DNA of 64,000 nucleotides from Escherichia coli. Lineage in GTDB: Bacteria; Pseudomonadota; Gammaproteobacteria; Enterobacterales; Enterobacteriaceae. The translations under genes and the position numbers were made by a program. The stretch is from the NCBI RefSeq assembly GCF_013122565.1, contig NZ_CP053258.1; one strand, given 5' to 3'. The stretch's first letter is position 1. The number at the start of each line of letters is the position of its first letter. Shown here one piece after another: positions 1-9,741 of this stretch. The notes under the pieces were generated by a model, which did not search any database, had not been told where the DNA came from, and saw only the letters and a list, made by a program, of their open reading frames with translations.

Positions 1-1125
1 CCATTATTGCTGGATGAACTGCTCGATCCAAACACTCTCTACCAGCCGACGGCGACCGATGCCTACCGTGATGAACTGCGCCAGTATTTGCTGCGCGTGC
101 CGGAAGATGACGAAGAACAACAGCTTGAGGCGCTGCGTCAGTTCAAACAGGCGCAGCTGTTACGCATTGCGGCAGCGGATATCGCCGGTACGCTACCGGT
201 GATGAAAGTGAGCGATCACTTAACCTGGCTGGCGGAAGCTATGATAGATGCCGTCGTTCAGCAGGCGTGGGTTCAAATGGTGGCCCGCTACGGTAAGCCA
301 AATCACCTCAACGAACGTGAAGGGCGCGGTTTTGCGGTGGTCGGCTACGGCAAGCTGGGCGGCTGGGAGTTAGGCTACAGCTCCGATCTTGACCTGATCT
401 TCCTCCATGATTGTCCAATGGATGCGATGACTGACGGCGAGCGGGAAATCGATGGGCGACAGTTTTATCTGCGTCTGGCGCAACGCATTATGCATCTGTT
501 CAGTACGCGTACCTCTTCCGGCATTTTGTATGAAGTAGATGCTCGACTGCGTCCGTCCGGGGCGGCGGGAATGCTGGTGACATCCGCAGAAGCATTTGCC
601 GATTATCAGAAAAACGAGGCCTGGACGTGGGAACATCAGGCGCTGGTGCGTGCGCGTGTAGTGTACGGCGATCCGCAGCTCACCGCGCACTTTGACGCGG
701 TGCGTCGCGAGATTATGACGCTGCCGCGTGAAGGTAAAACTCTGCAAACGGAAGTGCGGGAAATGCGCGAGAAAATGCGCGCTCATCTCGGCAATAAACA
801 TCGCGATCGCTTTGATATCAAAGCCGATGAAGGCGGAATTACCGATATCGAATTTATTACCCAATATCTGGTGTTGCGCTACGCTCATGAAAAACCGAAG
901 TTAACGCGCTGGTCAGACAACGTGCGCATTCTGGAACTACTGGCGCAAAACGACATTATGGAAGAGCAGGAAGCGATGGCGCTGACCCGTGCTTACACGA
1001 CGCTGCGCGATGAACTTCATCATCTTGCATTACAGGAATTGCCGGGCCATGTGTCGGAGGATTGCTTCACCGCAGAGCGTGAACTGGTGCGGGCAAGCTG
1101 GCAGAAGTGGCTGGTGGAAGAATGA
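1..1125 (+). CDS. glnE: Glutamine synthetase adenylyltransferase GlnE, C-terminal part; 5' end lies outside the window
   Basis: Open frame from position 1 to a stop at 1125; translation matches the GlnE nucleotidyltransferase C-terminal domain as remembered; followed directly by hldE as in E. coli. Confidence 0.9.
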
Positions 1126-1172
1126 AGTATGGTATTATCGCGCGCAAATTTTGAATCTCTCAGGAGACAGGA

Positions 1173-2606
1173 ATGAAAGTAACGCTGCCAGAGTTTGAAC
1201 GTGCAGGAGTGATGGTGGTTGGTGATGTGATGCTGGATCGTTATTGGTACGGTCCCACCAGCCGTATCTCGCCGGAAGCGCCGGTGCCCGTGGTTAAAGT
1301 GAATACCATCGAAGAACGTCCGGGCGGCGCGGCTAACGTGGCGATGAACATCGCTTCTCTCGGTGCTAATGCACGCCTGGTCGGGTTGACGGGCATTGAC
1401 GATGCAGCGCGTGCGCTGAGTAAATCTCTGGCCGACGTCAACGTCAAATGCGACTTCGTTTCTGTACCGACGCATCCGACCATCACCAAATTACGGGTAC
1501 TTTCCCGCAACCAACAGCTGATCCGTCTGGATTTTGAAGAAGGTTTCGAAGGTGTTGATCCGCAGCCGCTGCACGAGCGGATTAATCAGACGCTGAGTTC
1601 GATTGGCGCGCTGGTGCTTTCTGACTACGCCAAAGGTGCGCTGGCAAGCGTACAGCAGATGATCCAACTGGCGCGTAAAGCGGGCGTTCCGGTGCTGATT
1701 GATCCAAAAGGTACCGATTTTGAGCGCTACCGCGGCGCTACGCTGTTAACGCCGAATCTCTCGGAATTTGAAGCTGTTGTCGGTAAATGTAAGACCGAAG
1801 AAGAGATTGTTGAGCGCGGCATGAAACTGATTGCCGATTACGAACTCTCGGCTCTGTTAGTGACCCGTTCCGAACAGGGTATGTCGCTGCTTCAACCGGG
1901 TAAAGCGCCGCTGCATATGCCAACCCAGGCGCAGGAAGTGTATGACGTTACCGGCGCGGGCGACACGGTGATTGGCGTCCTGGCGGCAACGCTGGCAGCG
2001 GGTAATTCGCTGGAAGAAGCCTGCTTCTTTGCCAATGCGGCGGCAGGCGTGGTGGTCGGCAAACTGGGAACCTCCACGGTTTCGCCGATCGAGCTGGAAA
2101 ATGCTGTACGTGGACGTGCAGATACCGGCTTTGGCGTGATGACCGAAGAGGAACTGAAGCTGGCTGTAGCGGCAGCGCGTAAACGCGGTGAAAAAGTGGT
2201 GATGACCAATGGCGTCTTTGACATCCTGCACGCCGGGCACGTCTCTTATCTGGCAAATGCCCGTAAACTGGGTGACCGTTTGATTGTCGCCGTCAACAGC
2301 GATGCTTCCACCAAACGGCTGAAAGGGGATTCCCGCCCGGTAAACCCACTCGAACAGCGTATGATTGTGCTGGGCGCACTGGAAGCGGTCGACTGGGTAG
2401 TGTCGTTTGAAGAGGACACACCGCAGCGCTTGATCGCCGGGATCCTGCCAGACCTGCTGGTGAAAGGCGGCGATTATAAACCAGAAGAGATTGCCGGGAG
2501 TAAAGAAGTCTGGGCCAACGGCGGCGAAGTGTTGGTGCTCAACTTTGAAGACGGTTGCTCAACCACTAATATTATCAAGAAGATCCAACAGGATAAAAAA
2601 GGCTAA
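1173..2606 (+). CDS. hldE: Bifunctional D-glycero-beta-D-manno-heptose-7-phosphate kinase / heptose-1-phosphate adenylyltransferase
   Basis: 477-aa ORF; N-terminal ribokinase-like domain with GAGD motif, C-terminal cytidylyltransferase-like domain; ribosome-binding site GGAGA upstream. Confidence 0.95.
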
Positions 2607-2619
2607 CCGGAAAGCGGTT
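2593..2619 (-). terminator. Putative minus-strand intrinsic terminator (hairpin AACCG/CGGTT followed by a U-run) overlapping the hldE stop; candidate ibsD mRNA terminator
   Basis: Read on the minus strand: gaaccgctttccggtt then agccTTTTTT. Confidence 0.35.
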
Positions 2620-2686
2620 CACAGATCTCGCTTCGTAGCAGGCTGGCCTATTGACGCTGTTGTTTTTTCAACCTAAAGTAAAGGAA

Positions 2687-2834
2687 CAAGGGTAAGGGAG
2701 GATTTCTCCCCCCTCTGATGAGTTGTTAGTAAGTCGGGAAACTTAACAGTAACAACACAACCAGTATGATGACGAGCTTCATCATAACCCTTTCCTTCTA
2801 TAAGGCCCCTTCCTCGGGAGGGGCTTTCCCGTTT
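2687..2834 (+). ncRNA. sibD: Sib-type antisense sRNA (antitoxin of ibsD); ends approximate
   Basis: Sigma70-like promoter TTGACG (2651-2656), 17-bp spacer, TAAAGT (2674-2679); hairpin 2805-2824 followed by a weak T-tract; fully antisense to the 19-aa ibs ORF. Confidence 0.6.
2726..2785 (-). CDS. ibsD: Type I toxin Ibs family, 19-aa hydrophobic peptide MMKLVIILVVLLLLSFPTY
   Basis: Hand translation of the minus strand gives ATG ATG AAG CTC GTC ATC ATA CTG GTT GTG TTG TTA CTG TTA AGT TTC CCG ACT TAC TAA; AGGAAAGGG ribosome-binding site upstream; missing from the supplied ORF track because it is shorter than the length cutoff. Confidence 0.8.
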   Translation of the reverse strand: MMKLVIILVVLLLLSFPTY

Positions 2835-2976
2835 CAGCCCCTTGCTGACTCCCCGATTGTTGATGAGCGCCGGACCCCGCGCAACGCTTTCCCTGATGCA
2901 GTTTTCTCTTCCCCGAGTCGACTCGCAAAATGCTGCAACATCCTGATCATTTGCACTTTTTAGCGGAACGCAGATA

Positions 2977-3005
2977 TAAAAAATCCCCGGCTTTTTGGGC
3001 CAGGG
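2977..3005 (-). terminator. Minus-strand intrinsic terminator (CCCUGGC/GCCGGGG stem with G-U wobble, then U6), copy within repeat unit 1, downstream of ibsE
   Basis: Same motif as the terminator after yqiK. Confidence 0.45.
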
Positions 3006-3061
3006 ATATGTGTTAATGAAACCTTCTTGACGCTGATTTTTTTTCAACCTAAAGTAAAGGA

Positions 3062-3210
3062 ACAAGGGTAAGGGAGGATTTCTCCCCCCTCTGATTGGCT
3101 GTTAATAAGCTGCGAAACTTACGAGTAACAACACAATCAGTATGATGACGAGCTTCATCATAACCCTTTCCTTATACAAGGCCCCTTCTTCGGGAGGGGC
3201 TTTCCCGTTT
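3062..3210 (+). ncRNA. sibE: Sib-type antisense sRNA (antitoxin of ibsE); ends approximate
   Basis: Promoter TTGACG (3027-3032), 17-bp spacer, TAAAGT (3050-3055); hairpin 3181-3200 plus T-tract; antisense to ibsE. Confidence 0.6.
3102..3161 (-). CDS. ibsE: Type I toxin Ibs family, 19-aa peptide MMKLVIILIVLLLVSFAAY
   Basis: Hand translation of the minus strand gives ATG ATG AAG CTC GTC ATC ATA CTG ATT GTG TTG TTA CTC GTA AGT TTC GCA GCT TAT TAA. Confidence 0.8.
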   Translation of the reverse strand: MMKLVIILIVLLLVSFAAY

Positions 3211-3353
3211 CAGCCCCTTGCTGACTCCCCGATTGTTGATGAGCGCCGGACCCCGCGCAACGCTTTCCCTGAGGTAGTTTTGCCTTCCCCGAGCGGTCAC
3301 GCAAAATGCTGCAACAGCCCGATCATTTGCACTTTTTATCGGAACGCAGATAT

Positions 3354-3381
3354 AAAAAATCCCCGGCTTTTTGGGCCAGGG
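3354..3381 (-). terminator. Intrinsic terminator downstream of yqiK (minus strand)
   Basis: Minus-strand hairpin ccctggcccaaaaagccgggg followed by auuuuuu, 19 nt after the yqiK stop. Confidence 0.6.
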
Positions 3382-3399
3382 ACGTTCATAGCTGAAAAT

Positions 3400-5061
3400 T
3401 TATTCTACGTTTTCGGCGACGGGAGTTGTTGAGGTTAAGGGTGAAGTCAATGCCGCCAGTGAGCCGCCTGAAACGCCAATTTCATTGAGCAAGGAGTCAA
3501 TCAGCGGTGCCTGTGTGCGGTAAGAGAGAGCGGCTGATAATGCTTGTTCCGCCAGGTTTCCGCCCCCCACATTACCCGTGTTTGCATCACCCGCAGCGCT
3601 GCCACGATTCAGACCATCGACCTGAATAATCTTGATACCGTCAATAGATTTCATCGGCTCAACGGATTTTTCTATTACCGCAGGTAGCGCCTGCAACAAG
3701 GCCAGTTTGAATTTAAGGCTGGTTTGTTCATCAGAAAGTACGTTGATAGCATCGTTCAGCGCACGTTGTGCTTCTGCTTCCGCCAGACCCTTTTTACGTG
3801 TAGCTTCGGCTAACTCAACGATAGCCGCCGCCTGCATCTCTGCGGCTTCTTTTTCTGCTTTCGCCCGCACGGTCAGTTCAACCGCTTTGGTTTCTGCATC
3901 CTGCGCGGCAGCGATTAGGGCAACTTGTTTAGCACGATCGGCTTCGGCAGTCTGGCGAGTGGTTTCTACGTTTTGTTGGGCGCTTACCGCTTCTGCAAGT
4001 GCGAGATTAGCACGCGCTTCTGCCTGGGACTGTTGTTCCGATTTGGCGGCAATAGCGATCGATTTCGTCTGGTTAGCGATTTCGGTGACCTGCTGCTGTT
4101 CGATCTCTTTAATGCGAACTTCACGTTCAGCTTCAACCTTTCTTGAGCGGACGGCCTGTTCGCGGTCGATTTCTGTTTCCTGAATCTGTCGTTCAGCCAG
4201 AATTCGTGTCTGCTCTGCTTCACGACGACGTTCAGCTTCAAAAGCCGCAATACGTGCATTCTGTTCGGCAGTACGGGTTTTAACCTGCTGCTCCTGCTCA
4301 AGCGTCATAAACGCTTCTTGCTGTTCAATCTCCAGCTTGCGCGATAGCGCATCGCGATTTTTTTCACGCACCGCAACTTCTACATCCTGTTCAACTTCGT
4401 TACGTTCGCGGCGACGGCGCTCTGTTTCCTGAGTCAGTTTGGTTAAACCTTCGGCGTCAAAGGCATTGTTCGGATTGAAATGTTCTTTCGAGGTCTGGTT
4501 AAAGTTGGTAAGTGAAACGCTCTCCAGTTCCAGACCGTTTTTCGACAGGTCTTCTGCCACTGTATTTTGCACCCCCTGCACGAAGTTCTCGCGGGTATCC
4601 TGTAACTCATGCATGGTCATTTGCGCAGCTGTTGCACGGAGGGCATCGACAAATTTATCTTCAACCAACATACGTAAGTCTTCAGGCGACAGGGTGCGTT
4701 GCCCCAGCGTCTGGGCAGCGGTGGCAATCCCTTCTACTGAAGGTTTTACCCGCACAAAGAAAGCGACTACTACATCGACGCGCATACGATCTTTCGTAAT
4801 CAGGCTATCAATAGTTGAGCGGCTGACTTCCAGCTTCAGAGTATTCATATTGATGGGGATTATTTCATGAAAGATCGGCATCACGATTGCGCCACCGCTC
4901 ATTACCACTTTTTGCCCCCCTAAGCCGGTACGGACAAATGCTTGCTCTGCCGAAGCGCGACGATAGAGCCTGGCGAAAATAATTCCAATAATAAACAGAA
5001 TGCATACGGCAATAATCGCGGTAAACATCCAGGAGGGCACAGAATTAGCAATATCATCCAT
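3400..5061 (-). CDS. yqiK: Flotillin-like SPFH/band-7 membrane protein
   Basis: 553-aa ORF; N-terminal transmembrane segment, SPFH domain, long Ala/Glu/Gln-rich coiled-coil region. Confidence 0.9.
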   Translation of the reverse strand: MDDIANSVPSWMFTAIIAVCILFIIGIIFARLYRRASAEQAFVRTGLGGQKVVMSGGAIVMPIFHEIIPINMNTLKLEVSRSTIDSLITKDRMRVDVVVAFFVRVKPSVEGIATAAQTLGQRTLSPEDLRMLVEDKFVDALRATAAQMTMHELQDTRENFVQGVQNTVAEDLSKNGLELESVSLTNFNQTSKEHFNPNNAFDAEGLTKLTQETERRRRERNEVEQDVEVAVREKNRDALSRKLEIEQQEAFMTLEQEQQVKTRTAEQNARIAAFEAERRREAEQTRILAERQIQETEIDREQAVRSRKVEAEREVRIKEIEQQQVTEIANQTKSIAIAAKSEQQSQAEARANLALAEAVSAQQNVETTRQTAEADRAKQVALIAAAQDAETKAVELTVRAKAEKEAAEMQAAAIVELAEATRKKGLAEAEAQRALNDAINVLSDEQTSLKFKLALLQALPAVIEKSVEPMKSIDGIKIIQVDGLNRGSAAGDANTGNVGGGNLAEQALSAALSYRTQAPLIDSLLNEIGVSGGSLAALTSPLTSTTPVAENVE

Positions 5062-5087
5062 TATTAAATTTCCTTTTGATTAATAAA

Positions 5088-5717
5088 TTACAATATTTGG
5101 GGCCAGGGATTGTTTTCCGCCAAATATCGAGTTGCAGAAAGTCGGCAAATAATTAACACTTTGTCTCCTTTAGTGAAAATTTTTCCTTCTTCAGGCTCCA
5201 GTAGTAAATAATGTATTTGGCCAAATTGATCGGTGAGTTTTCCTTCGCAGGGATTACCTGAAGTGGCTTGATGACCGGTAATTAACGCCATGCTACCAAT
5301 ATATTCTTCTTCTGTAATAGCTGAACTATGATCGCGTGGAATCCAGGGCGCAACTATTTTACCGGTATAATGCACCGCAATAATCGTAAATAGTAAACTG
5401 ACAGGAACCACAAACAGGTTCGAGAGTGGTGATTGCCAGACCATGATGCAGGTATGCTGCAACAGGATGCCAATAAGACCAAAAAAACCAGCCAGTAAGC
5501 AAAGAACGACGAGAGCTGGCAATCTTCCGATATTGAGATAATGAAGTGCCTGGCTAATATGACCTGTGGTTATGGAATCATAATGGTCAAGATGTGCATC
5601 AAGTGCACCGGAGAGCATGTGACCGCAGATAAGCGCAAAAATTTCTAAAAGGCCGATCAACAGTACAAAGGAAATAGCGAAAAGATAAGGGGTGTTATAG
5701 TCGGCGAATAAAATCAT
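5088..5717 (-). CDS. yqiJ: NfeD-like inner membrane protein, partner of YqiK
   Basis: 209-aa polytopic hydrophobic ORF immediately upstream of yqiK on the same strand. Confidence 0.85.
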
Positions 5718-5985
5718 ATGTCACTCCAATGTCCATTTAGTGACGCAATATTTACTTTGGGATAGTTTCCTTGCTTACATTTATCTTTGTTAATAATAAC
5801 ACATGTTAGAGAAGTTCTGGAAGAAAAAGTCTTTTAATATGGTTTTTTATTTTTCACTAAAAAGTGTGATCGGGGACAATATATTTACGCACGTTATGTT
5901 TAAAGGCACTACACTGATTGGGGAATACTGAAATCAGAAAAAGCATATGGCCTTAAAAGGTATGCGATAACCGGAGGATGTGCTT

Positions 5986-6186
5986 ATGGATCATAGTCTT
6001 AATTCTTTAAATAACTTCGATTTCCTGGCGCGTAGTTTTGCCAGAATGCACGCAGAAGGTCGCCCGGTCGATATTCTGGCCGTTACTGGTAACATGGATG
6101 AAGAACATAGAACCTGGTTTTGCGCACGTTATGCCTGGTATTGCCAACAGATGATGCAAACCAGAGAACTTGAATTAGAACACTGA
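5986..6186 (+). CDS. glgS: Glycogen synthesis / surface-composition regulator GlgS (66 aa)
   Basis: Translation [66 protein letters not shown]; long AT-rich upstream region. Confidence 0.9.
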
Positions 6187-6190
6187 TATT

Positions 6191-6213
6191 ACGGGCCGTC
6201 TGGCCCGTTTTTG
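6191..6213. terminator. Terminator hairpin (CGGGCC gtct GGCCCG + T-run) in the convergent glgS/ubiK junction
   Basis: Perfect 6-bp GC stem followed by TTTTT; sits between the stop codons of convergent genes. Confidence 0.6.
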
Positions 6214-6220
6214 TGTTGCT

Positions 6221-6520
6221 TTATTCTGCTTTATCAATAGGCGGGATAGCCGGAGGAGATTGAAGATCTGCTACCGAATTATTGCGCGCTTCCAGTTCAC
6301 TGATGCGTTGCTCCAGTAACGCCAGTTTCTCACGAGTCCGTAACAGGACTTGCGTTTGGACGTCGAACTCTTCACGGCTTACAAGGTCGAGGCGCGTCAG
6401 CTGCGCTTGTAGGGTTTGGCGGATTTTTTTCTCCACATCTTCCCCGAACTCCCTGATTCCTTTAGGCATTGATTCGTGAACCTGGCGAGCGATTTGCTCA
6501 ATTTTTTTCGGGTCAATCAT
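6221..6520 (-). CDS. ubiK: Ubiquinone biosynthesis accessory factor UbiK (YqiC, BMFP family)
   Basis: ORF 6221-6580; start placed at internal Met ([13 protein letters not shown]...) to give ~99 aa; coiled-coil protein. Confidence 0.8.
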
Positions 6521-6606
6521 TGTAGTTTCCCTGTACTGATAGGTGTTGAGTGCCATTGTAGTGCGATAAGGGTAAGTCATAAACCAGAATTATGTGAAGC
6601 TATGCG

Positions 6607-6635
6607 TTGCTGCCGCTAATCATTAGCGTTATAGT
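6607..6635 (+). promoter_or_regulatory. Putative ribB promoter (-35 TTGCTG, 17-bp spacer, -10 TATAGT)
   Basis: Hexamers with canonical spacing just upstream of the riboswitch aptamer. Confidence 0.5.
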
Positions 6636-6644
6636 GAATCCGCT

Positions 6645-6795
6645 TATTCTCAGGGCGGGGCGAAATTCCCCACCGGCGGTAAATCAACTTGGTTGAAAGC
6701 CCGCGAGCGCTTTGAGTGCGAACTCAAAGGACAGCAGATCCGGTGTAATTCCGGGGCCGACGGTTAGAGTCCGGATGGGAGAGAGTAACGATTCT
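6645..6795 (+). promoter_or_regulatory. FMN riboswitch (RFN element) in the ribB leader; boundaries approximate
   Basis: Conserved RFN core: GGGCGGGGCGAAATTCCCCACCGGCGGTAAA...CCGGGGCCGACGGTTAGAGTCCGGATGGGAGAG upstream of ribB. Confidence 0.85.
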
Positions 6796-6893
6796 GTCGG
6801 GCATGGACCCGCTCACGTTATTTTGGCTATATGCCGCCACTCCTAAGACTGCCCTGATTCTGGTAACCATAATTTTAGTGAGGTTTTTTTACC

Positions 6894-7547
6894 ATGAATC
6901 AGACGCTACTTTCCTCTTTTGGTACGCCTTTCGAACGTGTTGAAAATGCACTGGCTGCGCTGCGTGAAGGACGCGGTGTAATGGTGCTTGATGATGAAGA
7001 CCGTGAAAACGAAGGTGATATGATCTTCCCGGCAGAAACCATGACTGTTGAGCAGATGGCGCTGACCATTCGCCACGGTAGCGGTATTGTTTGCCTGTGC
7101 ATTACTGAAGATCGCCGTAAACAACTTGATCTGCCAATGATGGTAGAAAATAACACCAGCGCCTATGGCACCGGTTTTACCGTGACCATTGAAGCGGCTG
7201 AAGGTGTGACTACCGGTGTTTCTGCCGCTGACCGTATTACGACCGTTCGCGCAGCGATTGCCGATGGCGCAAAACCTTCTGATCTGAATCGCCCTGGCCA
7301 CGTTTTCCCACTTCGCGCGCAGGCAGGTGGTGTACTGACGCGTGGCGGTCATACTGAAGCGACTATTGATCTGATGACGCTGGCAGGCTTTAAACCGGCT
7401 GGTGTGCTGTGTGAGCTGACTAATGACGATGGCACGATGGCGCGTGCACCAGAGTGCATTGAGTTTGCCAATAAACACAATATGGCGCTCGTGACTATTG
7501 AAGACCTGGTGGCATACCGTCAGGCACATGAGCGTAAAGCCAGCTGA
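6894..7547 (+). CDS. ribB: 3,4-dihydroxy-2-butanone 4-phosphate synthase
   Basis: 217-aa ORF matching RibB as remembered ([17 protein letters not shown]). Confidence 0.95.
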
Positions 7548-7580
7548 AAACCGCTGCTTAATTTACTGCCTTAATCAAGA

Positions 7581-7614
7581 AACCGAAGTTGTAGCAGGCT
7601 TCGGTTTTTATTTT
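7581..7614 (+). terminator. Intrinsic terminator after ribB
   Basis: Stem AACCGAAG / CTTCGGTT followed by TTTTTATTTT. Confidence 0.7.
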
Positions 7615-7808
7615 GCCCTGCTATGCAAGATGTTAATTCCGCTTCTCTTTCTATGAGAAAATTTCATTAATATCAGGCATTCTTTTTCATTATGATCAAA
7701 ATCATATAATTGTTCCGTTATTATGCGACCATATGAATATATCCGAAAAAGGATATGTGAAATTTATGCGCTAAATGTTTAGTATTGTTAAATATTAAGG
7801 GTAAAAGG

Positions 7809-7979
7809 ATGTTTATCGCCTGGTACTGGATTGTATTGATTGCTCTGGTTGTGGTGGGTTATTTCCTGCATTTGAAACGTTATTGTCGGGCGTTTCGCCA
7901 GGACAGAGACGCACTGCTTGAAGCGCGGAACAAATACTTAAACAGTACGAGAGAAGAGACAGCTGAAAAGGTAGAATAA
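7809..7979 (+). CDS. Small hypothetical membrane protein (~56 aa): one transmembrane helix plus a charged tail
   Basis: ATG with AAGGG ribosome-binding site; translation MFIAWYWIVLIALVVVGYFLHLKRYCRAFRQDRDALLEARNKYLNSTREETAEKVE; AT-rich upstream region. Confidence 0.4.
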   Translation: MFIAWYWIVLIALVVVGYFLHLKRYCRAFRQDRDALLEARNKYLNSTREETAEKVE

Positions 7980-8036
7980 GGCTTTCGTGAAGCTGGCAGA
8001 AGTTGTCCATGCGCTGGACAACTTCTGATGTTGTTT

Positions 8037-8925: not shown

Positions 8926-9741
8926 ATGACACCTTTAGTTAAGGATATCATCATGTCTTCAACACGTATGCCAGCATTGTTTTTAGGTCACGGTAGTCCG
9001 ATGAACGTGCTGGAAGATAATTTGTATACCCGCAGCTGGCAGAAGTTGGGGATGACATTGCCACGCCCGCAAGCGATTGTGGTGGTTTCGGCTCACTGGT
9101 TTACCCGTGGAACAGGAGTGACCGCGATGGAGACGCCGCCCACGATTCATGACTTTGGTGGCTTCCCGCAGGCGCTGTACGATACGCATTATCCTGCTCC
9201 GGGTTCGCCTGCGCTGGCACAGCGTCTGGTTGAGCTGTTAGCGCCGATCCCGGTGACGCTGGATAAAGAAGCCTGGGGCTTTGACCACGGCTCGTGGGGC
9301 GTGCTGATTAAGATGTATCCTGACGCTGATATCCCGATGGTGCAGTTGAGTATCGACAGTAGCAAACCTGCCGCCTGGCATTTCGAAATGGGGCGCAAAC
9401 TGACAGCGCTGCGAGATGAAGGAATAATGTTGGTCGCCAGCGGTAACGTGGTGCATAACCTGCGCACAGTGAAGTGGCACGGTGATAGTTCACCGTATCC
9501 GTGGGCGACGTCGTTTAATGAGTATGTGAAAGCGAATCTGACGTGGCAAGGGCCAGTGGAACAACATCCTCTGGTGAATTACCTCGACCATGAAGGTGGC
9601 GCGTTATCGAACCCAACGCCAGAGCATTATCTGCCGTTGTTGTATGTGTTAGGTGCGTGGGATGGGCAGGAGCCAATTACCATTCCGGTTGAGGGTATAG
9701 AAATGGGCAGCCTGAGTATGCTGTCGGTGCAGGTAGGTTAA
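8926..9741 (+). CDS. ygiD: Extradiol ring-cleavage dioxygenase class III (4,5-DOPA dioxygenase-like)
   Basis: 271-aa ORF; position between zupT and ygiC; exact start uncertain. Confidence 0.8.
   Translation: MTPLVKDIIMSSTRMPALFLGHGSPMNVLEDNLYTRSWQKLGMTLPRPQAIVVVSAHWFTRGTGVTAMETPPTIHDFGGFPQALYDTHYPAPGSPALAQRLVELLAPIPVTLDKEAWGFDHGSWGVLIKMYPDADIPMVQLSIDSSKPAAWHFEMGRKLTALRDEGIMLVASGNVVHNLRTVKWHGDSSPYPWATSFNEYVKANLTWQGPVEQHPLVNYLDHEGGALSNPTPEHYLPLLYVLGAWDGQEPITIPVEGIEMGSLSMLSVQVG

What the first reader, a model, noticed from the sequence alone, without database searches (positions are those of the whole stretch)
2977..3381. The yqiK terminator is part of the sib/ibs repeat unit and is duplicated
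The same minus-strand terminator (CCCUGGC-loop-GCCGGGG then U6) occurs at 3354-3381, right after the yqiK stop, and again at 2977-3005 inside the first repeat unit. The duplication that created the second ibs/sib copy therefore carried the terminator along. The 2977-3005 copy probably terminates ibsE mRNA about 100 nt past the toxin ORF, giving a long 3' UTR that is fully complementary to part of the Sib RNA. A further hairpin at 2593-2619 overlaps the hldE stop codon and may terminate ibsD mRNA.
Basis: seen in the sequence. Interest (0 to 1): 0.25.

Follow-up and report, generated by a model that had tools for sequence, protein, structure and literature searches.

The report
Duplicated yqiK terminator in ibs/sib repeat
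An ordinary transcription stop signal after the yqiK gene sits at the start of each of two tandem copies of a known toxin/antitoxin repeat, so it occurs twice, but published RNA-end maps show that the toxin mRNA ends well before the second copy.

Summary
An identical hairpin plus U6 lies on the minus strand at 3383..3354, 20 nt after the yqiK stop, and again at 3007..2978. Each copy is the first element of a ~376-bp tandem ibs/sib unit. E. coli K-12 has the same layout. In other Enterobacteriaceae the hairpin is present wherever an ibs/sib unit lies between yqiK and hldE. It is replaced by an unrelated REP-like hairpin where there is none. It is absent from the sibA/B and sibC loci, so it belongs to this locus's module and not to the SIB repeat family as a whole.

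- The gene names are swapped: the yqiK-proximal gene is ibsD and the hldE-proximal gene is ibsE.
- Two published K-12 3'-end analyses put the ibsD mRNA end about 30 nt after its stop, at the base of the GGGGGGAGAAAUCCUCCC hairpin.
- Neither analysis lists an ibs-strand end at either terminator copy.
- The hldE-stop hairpin is weak (-5.2 kcal/mol, no better than shuffles).

Most likely this is yqiK's intrinsic terminator, which also shields the ibs promoter. The inter-unit copy would stop only the ibsD transcripts that pass their usual end. This is ordinary, known biology.

The parts
3400..5061 (-). yqiK (flotillin family) coding sequence; stop codon at 3402..3400
   Evidence: ORF list and translation; annotated as yqiK in matching E. 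coli records
3354..3383 (-). yqiK-side intrinsic terminator: stem 3383..3359 (GUCCCUGGC / GCCGGGGAU, 7-nt loop), U-run to 3354
   Evidence: Terminator scan; fold -15.9 kcal/mol, z -2.9; terminator score d = +26.8; conserved with maintained pairing across genera
3225..3260 (-). ibsD promoter by homology to K-12: -35 TTGCGC 3260..3255, -10 AACAAT 3237..3232, start site G at 3225
   Evidence: Primer-extension start site and primer sequences in PMC2943612, mapped onto L001 and the window
   Evidence: Sequence; K-12 annotation of ibsD next to yqiK with the identical peptide
3027..3206 (+). sibD promoter (TTGACG-17-TAAAGT, 3027-3055) and SibD antitoxin RNA (about 3062-3206, ending at the GGCCCC..GGGGCUUUCCCGUUU terminator)
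   Evidence: Rfam SIB_RNA 150.8 bits; promoter scan; K-12 sibD annotation; Sib 3' ends in PMC10687069
3072..3089 (-). Proximal ibsD 3' hairpin GGGGGGAGAAAUCCUCCC. The published K-12 ibsD mRNA 3' end corresponds to window 3072, giving an mRNA of about 154 nt
   Evidence: Term-seq 3194855(+) in PMC7815308 and TRS 3194852-61(+) in PMC10687069; fold -15.4 kcal/mol
3008..3026 (.). 19-nt junction between the two units (tatgtgttaatgaaaccttc region). It is present in 3928 of 5426 complete E. coli genomes and in near-identical form in E. albertii and Escherichia sp. E1V33
   Evidence: Alignment; junction search; flanks
2978..3007 (-). Inter-unit copy of the terminator: stem 3007..2983 (AUCCCUGGC / GCCGGGGAU), U-run to 2978. 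It lies 95 nt downstream of the ibsD stop and about 95 nt upstream of the ibsE -35
   Evidence: No ibs-strand 3' end is listed here in either published data set. A Sib-strand 3' end maps 10 nt beyond it (K-12 3194912(-), about window 3016 on +)
2849..2884 (-). ibsE promoter by homology: -35 TTGCGC 2884..2879, -10 AACAAT 2861..2856, start site G at 2849
   Evidence: Homology to the ibsD promoter
   Evidence: Sequence; K-12 annotation and H1 annotation 'ibsE'
2651..2829 (+). sibE promoter (2651-2679) and SibE antitoxin RNA (about 2686-2829)
   Evidence: Rfam SIB_RNA 142.8 bits; promoter scan; K-12 annotation
2595..2619 (-). Weak hairpin AACCGCUUUCCGGUU (2619..2605), then AGCC, then U6 (2600..2595, the complement of the last hldE lysine codons). 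It is a doubtful terminator for ibsE
   Evidence: -5.2 kcal/mol, z -1.3, d = -84.8 (-6.1 for a 48-nt imperfect version). No mapped 3' end
1173..2606 (+). hldE coding sequence, convergent with yqiK
   Evidence: ORF list; annotation in matching records

Best explanation
The repeated element is a canonical Rho-independent terminator on the yqiK/ibs strand. It forms the upstream boundary of the ibs/sib toxin-antitoxin module that sits between yqiK and hldE.

The copy next to yqiK ends yqiK transcription 20-50 nt after the stop codon. In doing so it keeps yqiK read-through out of the ibsD promoter and toxin gene about 95 nt further on.

A ~376-bp tandem duplication ran from just upstream of the hairpin to the sib promoter. 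It produced the second module and, with it, a second terminator between ibsD and ibsE. That inter-unit copy stops whatever ibs-strand transcription passes the normal ibsD 3' end, and so insulates ibsE.

The main ibsD mRNA is not made there. It ends about 30 nt after the stop codon, at the hairpin that is the complement of the Sib 5' stem-loop.

Shown: the sequence, the fold, the duplication, the co-occurrence with the module, and the published ibsD 3' end. Inferred: that termination actually occurs at either copy, and the insulating role.
For: - **Terminator anatomy.** 9-bp GC-rich stem, 7-nt loop and U6; -15.3/-15.9 kcal/mol with z about -2.9; score d = +26.8. Both copies were flagged by the scan.
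- **Position.** The first copy lies 20 nt after the yqiK stop.
- **K-12.** The layout and hairpin sequence are the same.
- **Other genera.** Every sampled genome with an ibs/sib unit between yqiK and hldE has the hairpin after yqiK. These are Escherichia spp., two Citrobacter, two Phytobacter, Kluyvera, Klebsiella spallanzanii, an unnamed Enterobacteriaceae genome and Kosakonia. All except Kosakonia also have a T6-7 run. Pairing is kept through wobble shifts and one G-C to A-U double change. Six genomes with yqiK and hldE adjacent but no unit have a REP-like hairpin instead.
- **Copy number.** Hairpin number tracks unit number in 5408 E. coli genomes.
- **Conservation of the inter-unit copy.** It keeps the E. 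coli stem sequence in E. albertii (whole hairpin identical) and in Escherichia sp. E1V33 (two loop changes), where the yqiK-side copy has changed.
- **ibsD 3' end.** It maps to the proximal hairpin in two analyses (PMC7815308 and PMC10687069). ibsA ends at the homologous hairpin. This fits the ~160-nt ibsC mRNA cited in PMC2943612.
Against: - Neither 3'-end list shows a plus-strand (K-12) end at either terminator copy, so termination there is not demonstrated. yqiK may simply be too weakly expressed under the conditions used.
- The sibA/sibB tandem has no terminator between its units. An inter-unit insulator is therefore not a general requirement, and the inter-unit copy could be a passenger of the duplication.
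- Covariation is thin, because the hairpin sequence is almost invariant.
- The Kosakonia homologue has no U-run.
Confidence: 0.75

Rival explanations
1. One reading: the inter-unit terminator is where the upstream ibs mRNA (properly ibsD) normally ends. This would give a ~247-nt mRNA with a ~120-nt 3' UTR, and the hldE-stop hairpin would do the same for the other ibs gene.
For: - The geometry fits. The hairpin starts 95 nt after the ibsD stop on the same strand and is a strong terminator.
- The proximal hairpin has a poor U-tract (d = -18.8), so some read-through is expected.
- ibsC has a mapped distal 3' end 110 nt past its stop (PMC10687069).
Against: - Two K-12 3'-end analyses list the ibsD end at 3194854/5(+), and nothing at 3194949-55(+).
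- A terminator hairpin should protect such an end from trimming, so a major long form ought to be visible.
- The ibsC mRNA is about 160 nt by northern blot, as cited in PMC2943612.
- The hldE-stop hairpin is no more stable than shuffled sequence.
- The proven Sib terminators also score d < 0. The poor score of the proximal hairpin therefore does not argue against termination there.
Confidence: 0.15
2. The inter-unit copy is a functionless passenger. It is there only because the duplicated segment happened to include yqiK's terminator.
For: - The sibA/sibB tandem works without any terminator between its units.
- No 3' end is mapped at the inter-unit copy on the ibs strand.
- About 27% of complete E. 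coli genomes lack the inter-unit junction and so most likely carry a single unit, that is, no inter-unit copy.
Against: - The inter-unit stem is identical in E. coli, E. albertii and Escherichia sp. E1V33, while the yqiK-side copy has diverged in the latter two.
- The hairpin segment is the best-conserved part of the D/E comparison, at 97-100% against 80-92% for neighbouring 40-nt blocks.
- Gene conversion between the copies could also produce this pattern.
Confidence: 0.25
3. The hairpin also, or mainly, works on the opposite (Sib) strand. There it would be a 3' stem-loop at which read-through Sib transcripts, stopped by Rho, are trimmed and stabilised. This would keep SibE read-through out of the sibD promoter and SibD read-through out of antisense yqiK.
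For: - A Sib-strand 3' end at K-12 3194911-19(-) lies 10 nt past the inter-unit hairpin (PMC10687069 Suppl. Data 3).
- A Rho termination region has its peak at 3194538(-), 8 nt past the yqiK-side hairpin. Its score is 24.5, and downstream coverage rises from 53 to 1439 with bicyclomycin (PMC7815308 Suppl. file 2).
- The hairpin also folds on that strand, at -12 to -13.5 kcal/mol.
Against: - There is no U-run on that strand (tails AUAUGUGUU and CGUUCAUAG; d = -33 and -56).
- The 3194912 site ranks low (statistic 0.63).
- The Rho coordinate comes from 800-nt windows and is only approximate.
- The conserved T6-7 run makes sense only for the yqiK/ibs strand.
Confidence: 0.3

Closest known systems
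Rho-independent (intrinsic) transcription terminators of Enterobacteriaceae
   Same: GC-rich 9-bp stem, 7-nt loop and an immediately following U6. It lies 20 nt after a stop codon on the coding strand and has a strongly positive terminator score.
   Different: Nothing unusual. The only notable point is that it is duplicated as part of a tandem repeat, and that no in vivo 3' end has yet been listed at either copy.
SIB (formerly QUAD) repeats, i.e. the ibs/sib type I toxin-antitoxin loci of E. coli (Rfam RF00113; PMC3531124, PMC2943612)
   Same: Two full SIB_RNA matches (151 and 143 bits) each lie antisense to a 19-codon Ibs ORF. The arrangement is the K-12 sibD/ibsD-sibE/ibsE arrangement.
   Different: The terminator hairpin and the ~170 nt between it and the Sib terminator are shared only by the D and E units. 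Homology to sibA, sibB and sibC covers only about 150-160 nt of the unit, and those loci lack the hairpin.
serA terminator upstream of ibsC
   Same: The architecture is the same: an upstream gene on the ibs strand, its intrinsic terminator, then the ibs promoter within about 100 nt.
   Different: The hairpin sequence is unrelated and it is not part of a repeat.
REP-type hairpins between convergent genes
   Same: In Citrobacter and Phytobacter genomes without ibs/sib, the yqiK-hldE spacer holds a GCCGGATG..CATCCGGC hairpin in the same place.
   Different: That hairpin belongs to a different sequence family. The hairpin studied here is not dispersed: it occurs twice in the window and 1-4 times per E. 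coli genome. The places listed or fetched all lie in the yqiK-hldE spacer, but the location of every place was not checked.

Membership tests
Intrinsic (Rho-independent) terminator | Stable GC-rich stem-loop | tested here: met
   9-bp stem with 6 G-C pairs; -15.3/-15.9 kcal/mol; z about -2.9 against shuffles
Intrinsic (Rho-independent) terminator | Run of U immediately 3' of the stem on the transcribed strand | tested here: met
   U6 directly after the stem in both copies. T6-7 in all homologues except Kosakonia
Intrinsic (Rho-independent) terminator | Transcript 3' ends map to the U-run in vivo | tested here: inconclusive
   No plus-strand 3' end at K-12 3194546-73 or 3194922-49 in PMC7815308 Suppl. 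file 1 or PMC10687069 Suppl. Data 2-3. These are thresholded lists, two of the TRS files were cut when stored, and yqiK may be too weakly expressed
Intrinsic (Rho-independent) terminator | Base pairing conserved in relatives | tested here: met
   In 17 copies from 8 genera, 15 keep all nine positions paired. Changes are wobble shifts and one compensatory G-C to A-U. One interior mismatch occurs in the E. albertii yqiK-side copy, and the closing A-U pair is lost in Phytobacter ursingii
Bidirectional terminator | U-run on both strands (A-run 5' and T-run 3' of the stem) | tested here: not met
   On the + strand the stem is followed by AUAUGUGUU or CGUUCAUAG; d = -33 and -56
SIB/QUAD repeat (ibs/sib type I toxin-antitoxin) | Sib RNA matching Rfam RF00113 above the gathering score | tested here: met
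   150.8 and 142.8 bits against a gathering score of 56, + strand, 3027-3176 and 2651-2800
SIB/QUAD repeat (ibs/sib type I toxin-antitoxin) | 18-19-codon hydrophobic Ibs ORF fully antisense to Sib | tested here: met
   ORFs 3161..3102 and 2785..2726, identical to K-12 IbsD and IbsE
SIB/QUAD repeat (ibs/sib type I toxin-antitoxin) | The terminator hairpin is shared by all family members (needed for the title claim 'part of the sib/ibs repeat unit' in the general sense) | tested here: not met
   Absent from the sibA/sibB (L004) and sibC (L005) loci. BLAST homology is limited to unit positions ~161-320. It is part of the yqiK-hldE module only
Tandem duplication that includes the terminator | Hairpin count equals unit count, and single-unit genomes have one hairpin | tested here: met
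   3928 genomes with a junction (3943 junction places) and 5408 genomes with 9429 hairpin places. Single-unit loci L003, L035, L037 and other genera have one hairpin

The most novel reading that the evidence does not exclude
Each ibs/sib module at the yqiK-hldE locus is a self-contained, transcriptionally insulated cassette.

- Its boundary hairpin is under selection and acts on both strands. On the toxin strand it is an intrinsic terminator that keeps foreign transcription out of the toxin promoter. On the antitoxin strand it is the stem-loop at which Rho-terminated Sib read-through RNAs are trimmed.
- The near-identical ~75-nt hairpin-proximal stretches are the substrate for the unequal crossing-over that gives 1 to 4 modules in natural E. 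coli.
Probability: 0.25. Interest if true: 0.3.

Novelty: already known. Interest (0 to 1): 0.12.

Why it matters
It matters little beyond annotation.

- It corrects the D/E naming.
- It fixes the boundaries of the duplicated module: hairpin to sib promoter, about 376 bp.
- It shows that the hairpin travels with the ibs/sib module across genera.
- It records that published 3'-end maps place the ibsD mRNA end at the proximal hairpin and not at the terminator.

For type I toxin-antitoxin work, the useful reminder is that the toxin promoter is preceded by a terminator, here and at ibsC. Constructs that drop the terminator may expose the toxin gene to read-through.

Tried and rejected
- **Fozo et al. 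2008 and the 2008 MMBR review.** These are the primary descriptions of the SIB repeats and the ibs northern blots. They are not held, so I could not check whether the terminator is already drawn in their figures.
- **Other transcript-end sources.** The SMRT-Cappable-seq supplements do not mention these genes. No supplements are held for the Rend-seq annotation paper, Conway 2014 or Dar and Sorek 2018.
- **Salmonella IbsA preprint.** It gives no transcript-end mapping.
- **MAFFT alignment of the hairpins (A2).** It misplaced the gap for the two 8-nt-loop copies, so I counted pairs with a script instead.
- **Terminator score as evidence against the proximal ibs hairpin.** I rejected this use. 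The experimentally established Sib terminators score even lower, d = -25 to -30.
- **Member of a dispersed repeat family.** Rejected: there are only two copies in the window and 1-4 per E. coli genome.
- **Rfam matches to mir-7 and GadY in the region.** These are chance-level (E 0.45-0.89, far below gathering).

Full report
**What is in the sequence**

On the minus strand, yqiK (5061..3400) ends with TAA at 3402..3400. Twenty nucleotides later comes GUCCCUGGC-CCAAAAA-GCCGGGGAU followed by U6 (3383..3354). The same 29 nt recur at 3006..2978. These are the only two matches in the 64-kb window with up to three mismatches, and none is expected by chance. Each folds as a 9-bp stem with a 7-nt loop, at -15.3 and -15.9 kcal/mol with z about -2.9. 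Both were picked by the terminator scan. Both score d = +26.8 on a d'Aubenton-Carafa-type measure.

The two copies are the first element of a tandem direct repeat, 2651-3007 and 3027-3383. The period is 376 and the units are about 92% identical. Read in the yqiK direction, each unit contains:
- the hairpin;
- about 95 nt of spacer;
- an ibs promoter;
- a 19-codon ibs ORF (3161..3102 and 2785..2726);
- on the other strand, a Sib RNA with its promoter (Rfam SIB_RNA, 151 and 143 bits).

**Identity of the locus and the naming error**

E. coli K-12 has exactly this arrangement: yqiK, hairpin, sibD/ibsD, hairpin, sibE/ibsE, hldE. The hairpin sequence is the same. The yqiK-proximal peptide here (..LLLVSFAAY) is IbsD and the hldE-proximal one (..LLLLSFPTY) is IbsE.

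The window itself is at most 97.8% identical to any complete E. coli genome over its first 8 kb. It therefore comes from a somewhat divergent Escherichia lineage.

**Is the hairpin part of the sib/ibs repeat?**

It is part of the repeat at this locus, but not of the family as a whole. The sibA/sibB and sibC loci of K-12 share only about 150-160 nt with these units and lack the hairpin. At ibsC the unrelated serA terminator occupies the equivalent place.

I fetched yqiK loci from one genome per species. The hairpin follows yqiK in every genome that has an ibs/sib unit between yqiK and hldE. These are several Escherichia, Citrobacter youngae CCUG 30791, Citrobacter sp. FP75, two Phytobacter, Kluyvera sichuanensis, Klebsiella spallanzanii, an unnamed Enterobacteriaceae genome and Kosakonia. 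All of them except Kosakonia also carry a T6-7 run after the hairpin. Six genomes in which yqiK and hldE are adjacent without a unit carry a REP-like GCCGGATG hairpin instead.

Pairing is kept through wobble shifts (CCCUGGC to CCUCGGC), a C-G for U-G change, and one compensatory G-C to A-U change.

**The duplication**

The inter-unit junction is found in 3928 of 5426 complete E. coli genomes, and twice in 15 of them. The hairpin segment is found in 5408 genomes at 9429 places, 1 to 4 per genome. Hairpin number therefore equals unit number.

The same junction flank (cattaacaca..) is present in E. albertii and Escherichia sp. E1V33. The duplication is therefore old.

Single-unit alleles L003 and L035 are E-type at all or nearly all of the 12 D/E diagnostic positions. 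This fits loss of the D unit by recombination between the near-identical hairpin regions. An ancestral single unit is not excluded.

**Does the inter-unit copy terminate the upstream ibs mRNA?**

Han et al. mapped the ibsD start by primer extension and stated that ibs 3' ends were undefined. They assumed about 160 nt from the ibsC northern blot (PMC2943612).

Two later genome-wide analyses give the ibsD 3' end.
- Term-seq puts it at K-12 3194855(+) in LB at OD 0.4. This is the last C of GGGGGGAGAAAUCCUCCC (PMC7815308 Suppl. file 1).
- The TRS analysis puts it at 3194852-61(+), with the peak at 3194854 (PMC10687069 Suppl. Data 3).

That position corresponds to window 3072. It implies an mRNA of about 154 nt with a 30-nt 3' UTR. 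Neither list has a plus-strand end at either terminator copy. ibsA ends at the homologous hairpin.

Three caveats apply:
- the lists are thresholded;
- ibsC has only a distal end, 110 nt past its stop;
- the proximal hairpin has a poor U-tract (d = -18.8), although the proven Sib terminators score lower still.

A minor long form ending at the U6 remains plausible. Even then, only the first ~40 nt of its 3' UTR (3101..3062) would pair with Sib RNA. The rest is antisense to the sib promoter.

**The hldE-stop hairpin**

This is a 5-bp stem at -5.2 kcal/mol with z = -1.3, separated from its U6 by 4 nt. The U6 is simply the complement of the terminal lysine codons of hldE. A longer imperfect stem that abuts the U6 is no better than shuffled sequence. 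No ibsE 3' end is mapped there. I regard it as unsupported.

**The other strand**

The TRS list has a Sib-strand 3' end at 3194911-19(-), 10 nt beyond the inter-unit hairpin. The bicyclomycin data define a Rho termination region that peaks at 3194538(-), just beyond the yqiK-side hairpin. Downstream coverage there rises from 53 to 1439. Sib read-through is thus ended by Rho near these hairpins. The stem-loops may mark where such RNAs are trimmed. There is no U-run on that strand, so the element is not a bidirectional intrinsic terminator.

**Conclusion**

The element is an ordinary intrinsic terminator for yqiK. It also bounds and shields the ibs/sib module, and it was copied when the module was duplicated. 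The inter-unit copy most likely acts as a backstop and insulator in front of ibsE. The case for that function rests on its strict conservation, which exceeds that of the yqiK-side copy in E. albertii and E1V33. The case against rests on the terminator-free sibA/sibB tandem. This is known biology with a small annotation gain, so interest is low.

Noticed in passing
window 2651-3383; E. coli complete genomes: The ibs/sib module varies in copy number. The inter-unit junction is present in 3928 of 5426 complete E. coli genomes and twice in 15 of them. The hairpin segment occurs 1-4 times per genome. Single-unit alleles L003 and L035 are E-type, and L037 is a D/E mosaic.
   Followed up: partly
window about 3016 (+), equivalent to K-12 3194912(-); K-12 3194538(-), about window 3391 (+): Published data show a Sib-strand 3' end 10 nt beyond the inter-unit hairpin. 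They also show a strong Rho-dependent termination region (score 24.5) just beyond the yqiK-side hairpin, running antisense into yqiK.
   Followed up: partly
window 2951-2980 and 3327-3356, + strand: A promoter-like TTGCAC-18 nt-TATAAA lies just upstream of each hairpin on the Sib strand. The consensus scan did not flag it because the last base of the -10 is A. It could start antisense transcripts through the hairpin.
   Followed up: no
L010, L016, L017, L018, L033, L039 (yqiK-hldE spacers): In Citrobacter and Phytobacter genomes without an ibs/sib unit, yqiK and hldE converge on a short spacer. It holds a REP-like GCCGGATG..CATCCGGC hairpin in place of the CCCTGGC hairpin.
   Followed up: partly
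L036:4202-4240 (Kosakonia sp. S29): The homologous hairpin has a longer 12-bp stem with a compensatory G-C to A-U change but no T-run (-22.5 kcal/mol). There it cannot be a standard intrinsic terminator.
   Followed up: no
L011 and L012, about 4215-4250 (Pseudocitrobacter): A different hairpin (GCCTCC..GGAGGC) follows yqiK but is followed by the same TTTTTTATATCTGG tail as in Escherichia. No ibs/sib unit or hldE was detected downstream.
   Followed up: no
L005 (K-12 3056781, minus strand): The only listed ibsC-strand 3' end is distal. It lies 110 nt past the ibsC stop, at the hairpin shared with the convergent fau gene. ibsA and ibsD, by contrast, end at the proximal hairpin.
   Followed up: partly
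K-12 3195130(+), about window 2792 on the minus strand: A 3' end within the ibsE 5' UTR, just upstream of the start codon, is listed in PMC10687069. This suggests premature termination or processing of ibsE mRNA opposite the SibE terminator.
   Followed up: no
window 1-8000: The window is at most 97.8% identical to any of 5426 complete E. coli genomes over its first 8 kb. Its yqiK-proximal unit is 100% identical to that of strain FDAARGOS_943, while its hldE-proximal unit is only 96% identical. The locus is therefore mosaic.
   Followed up: partly
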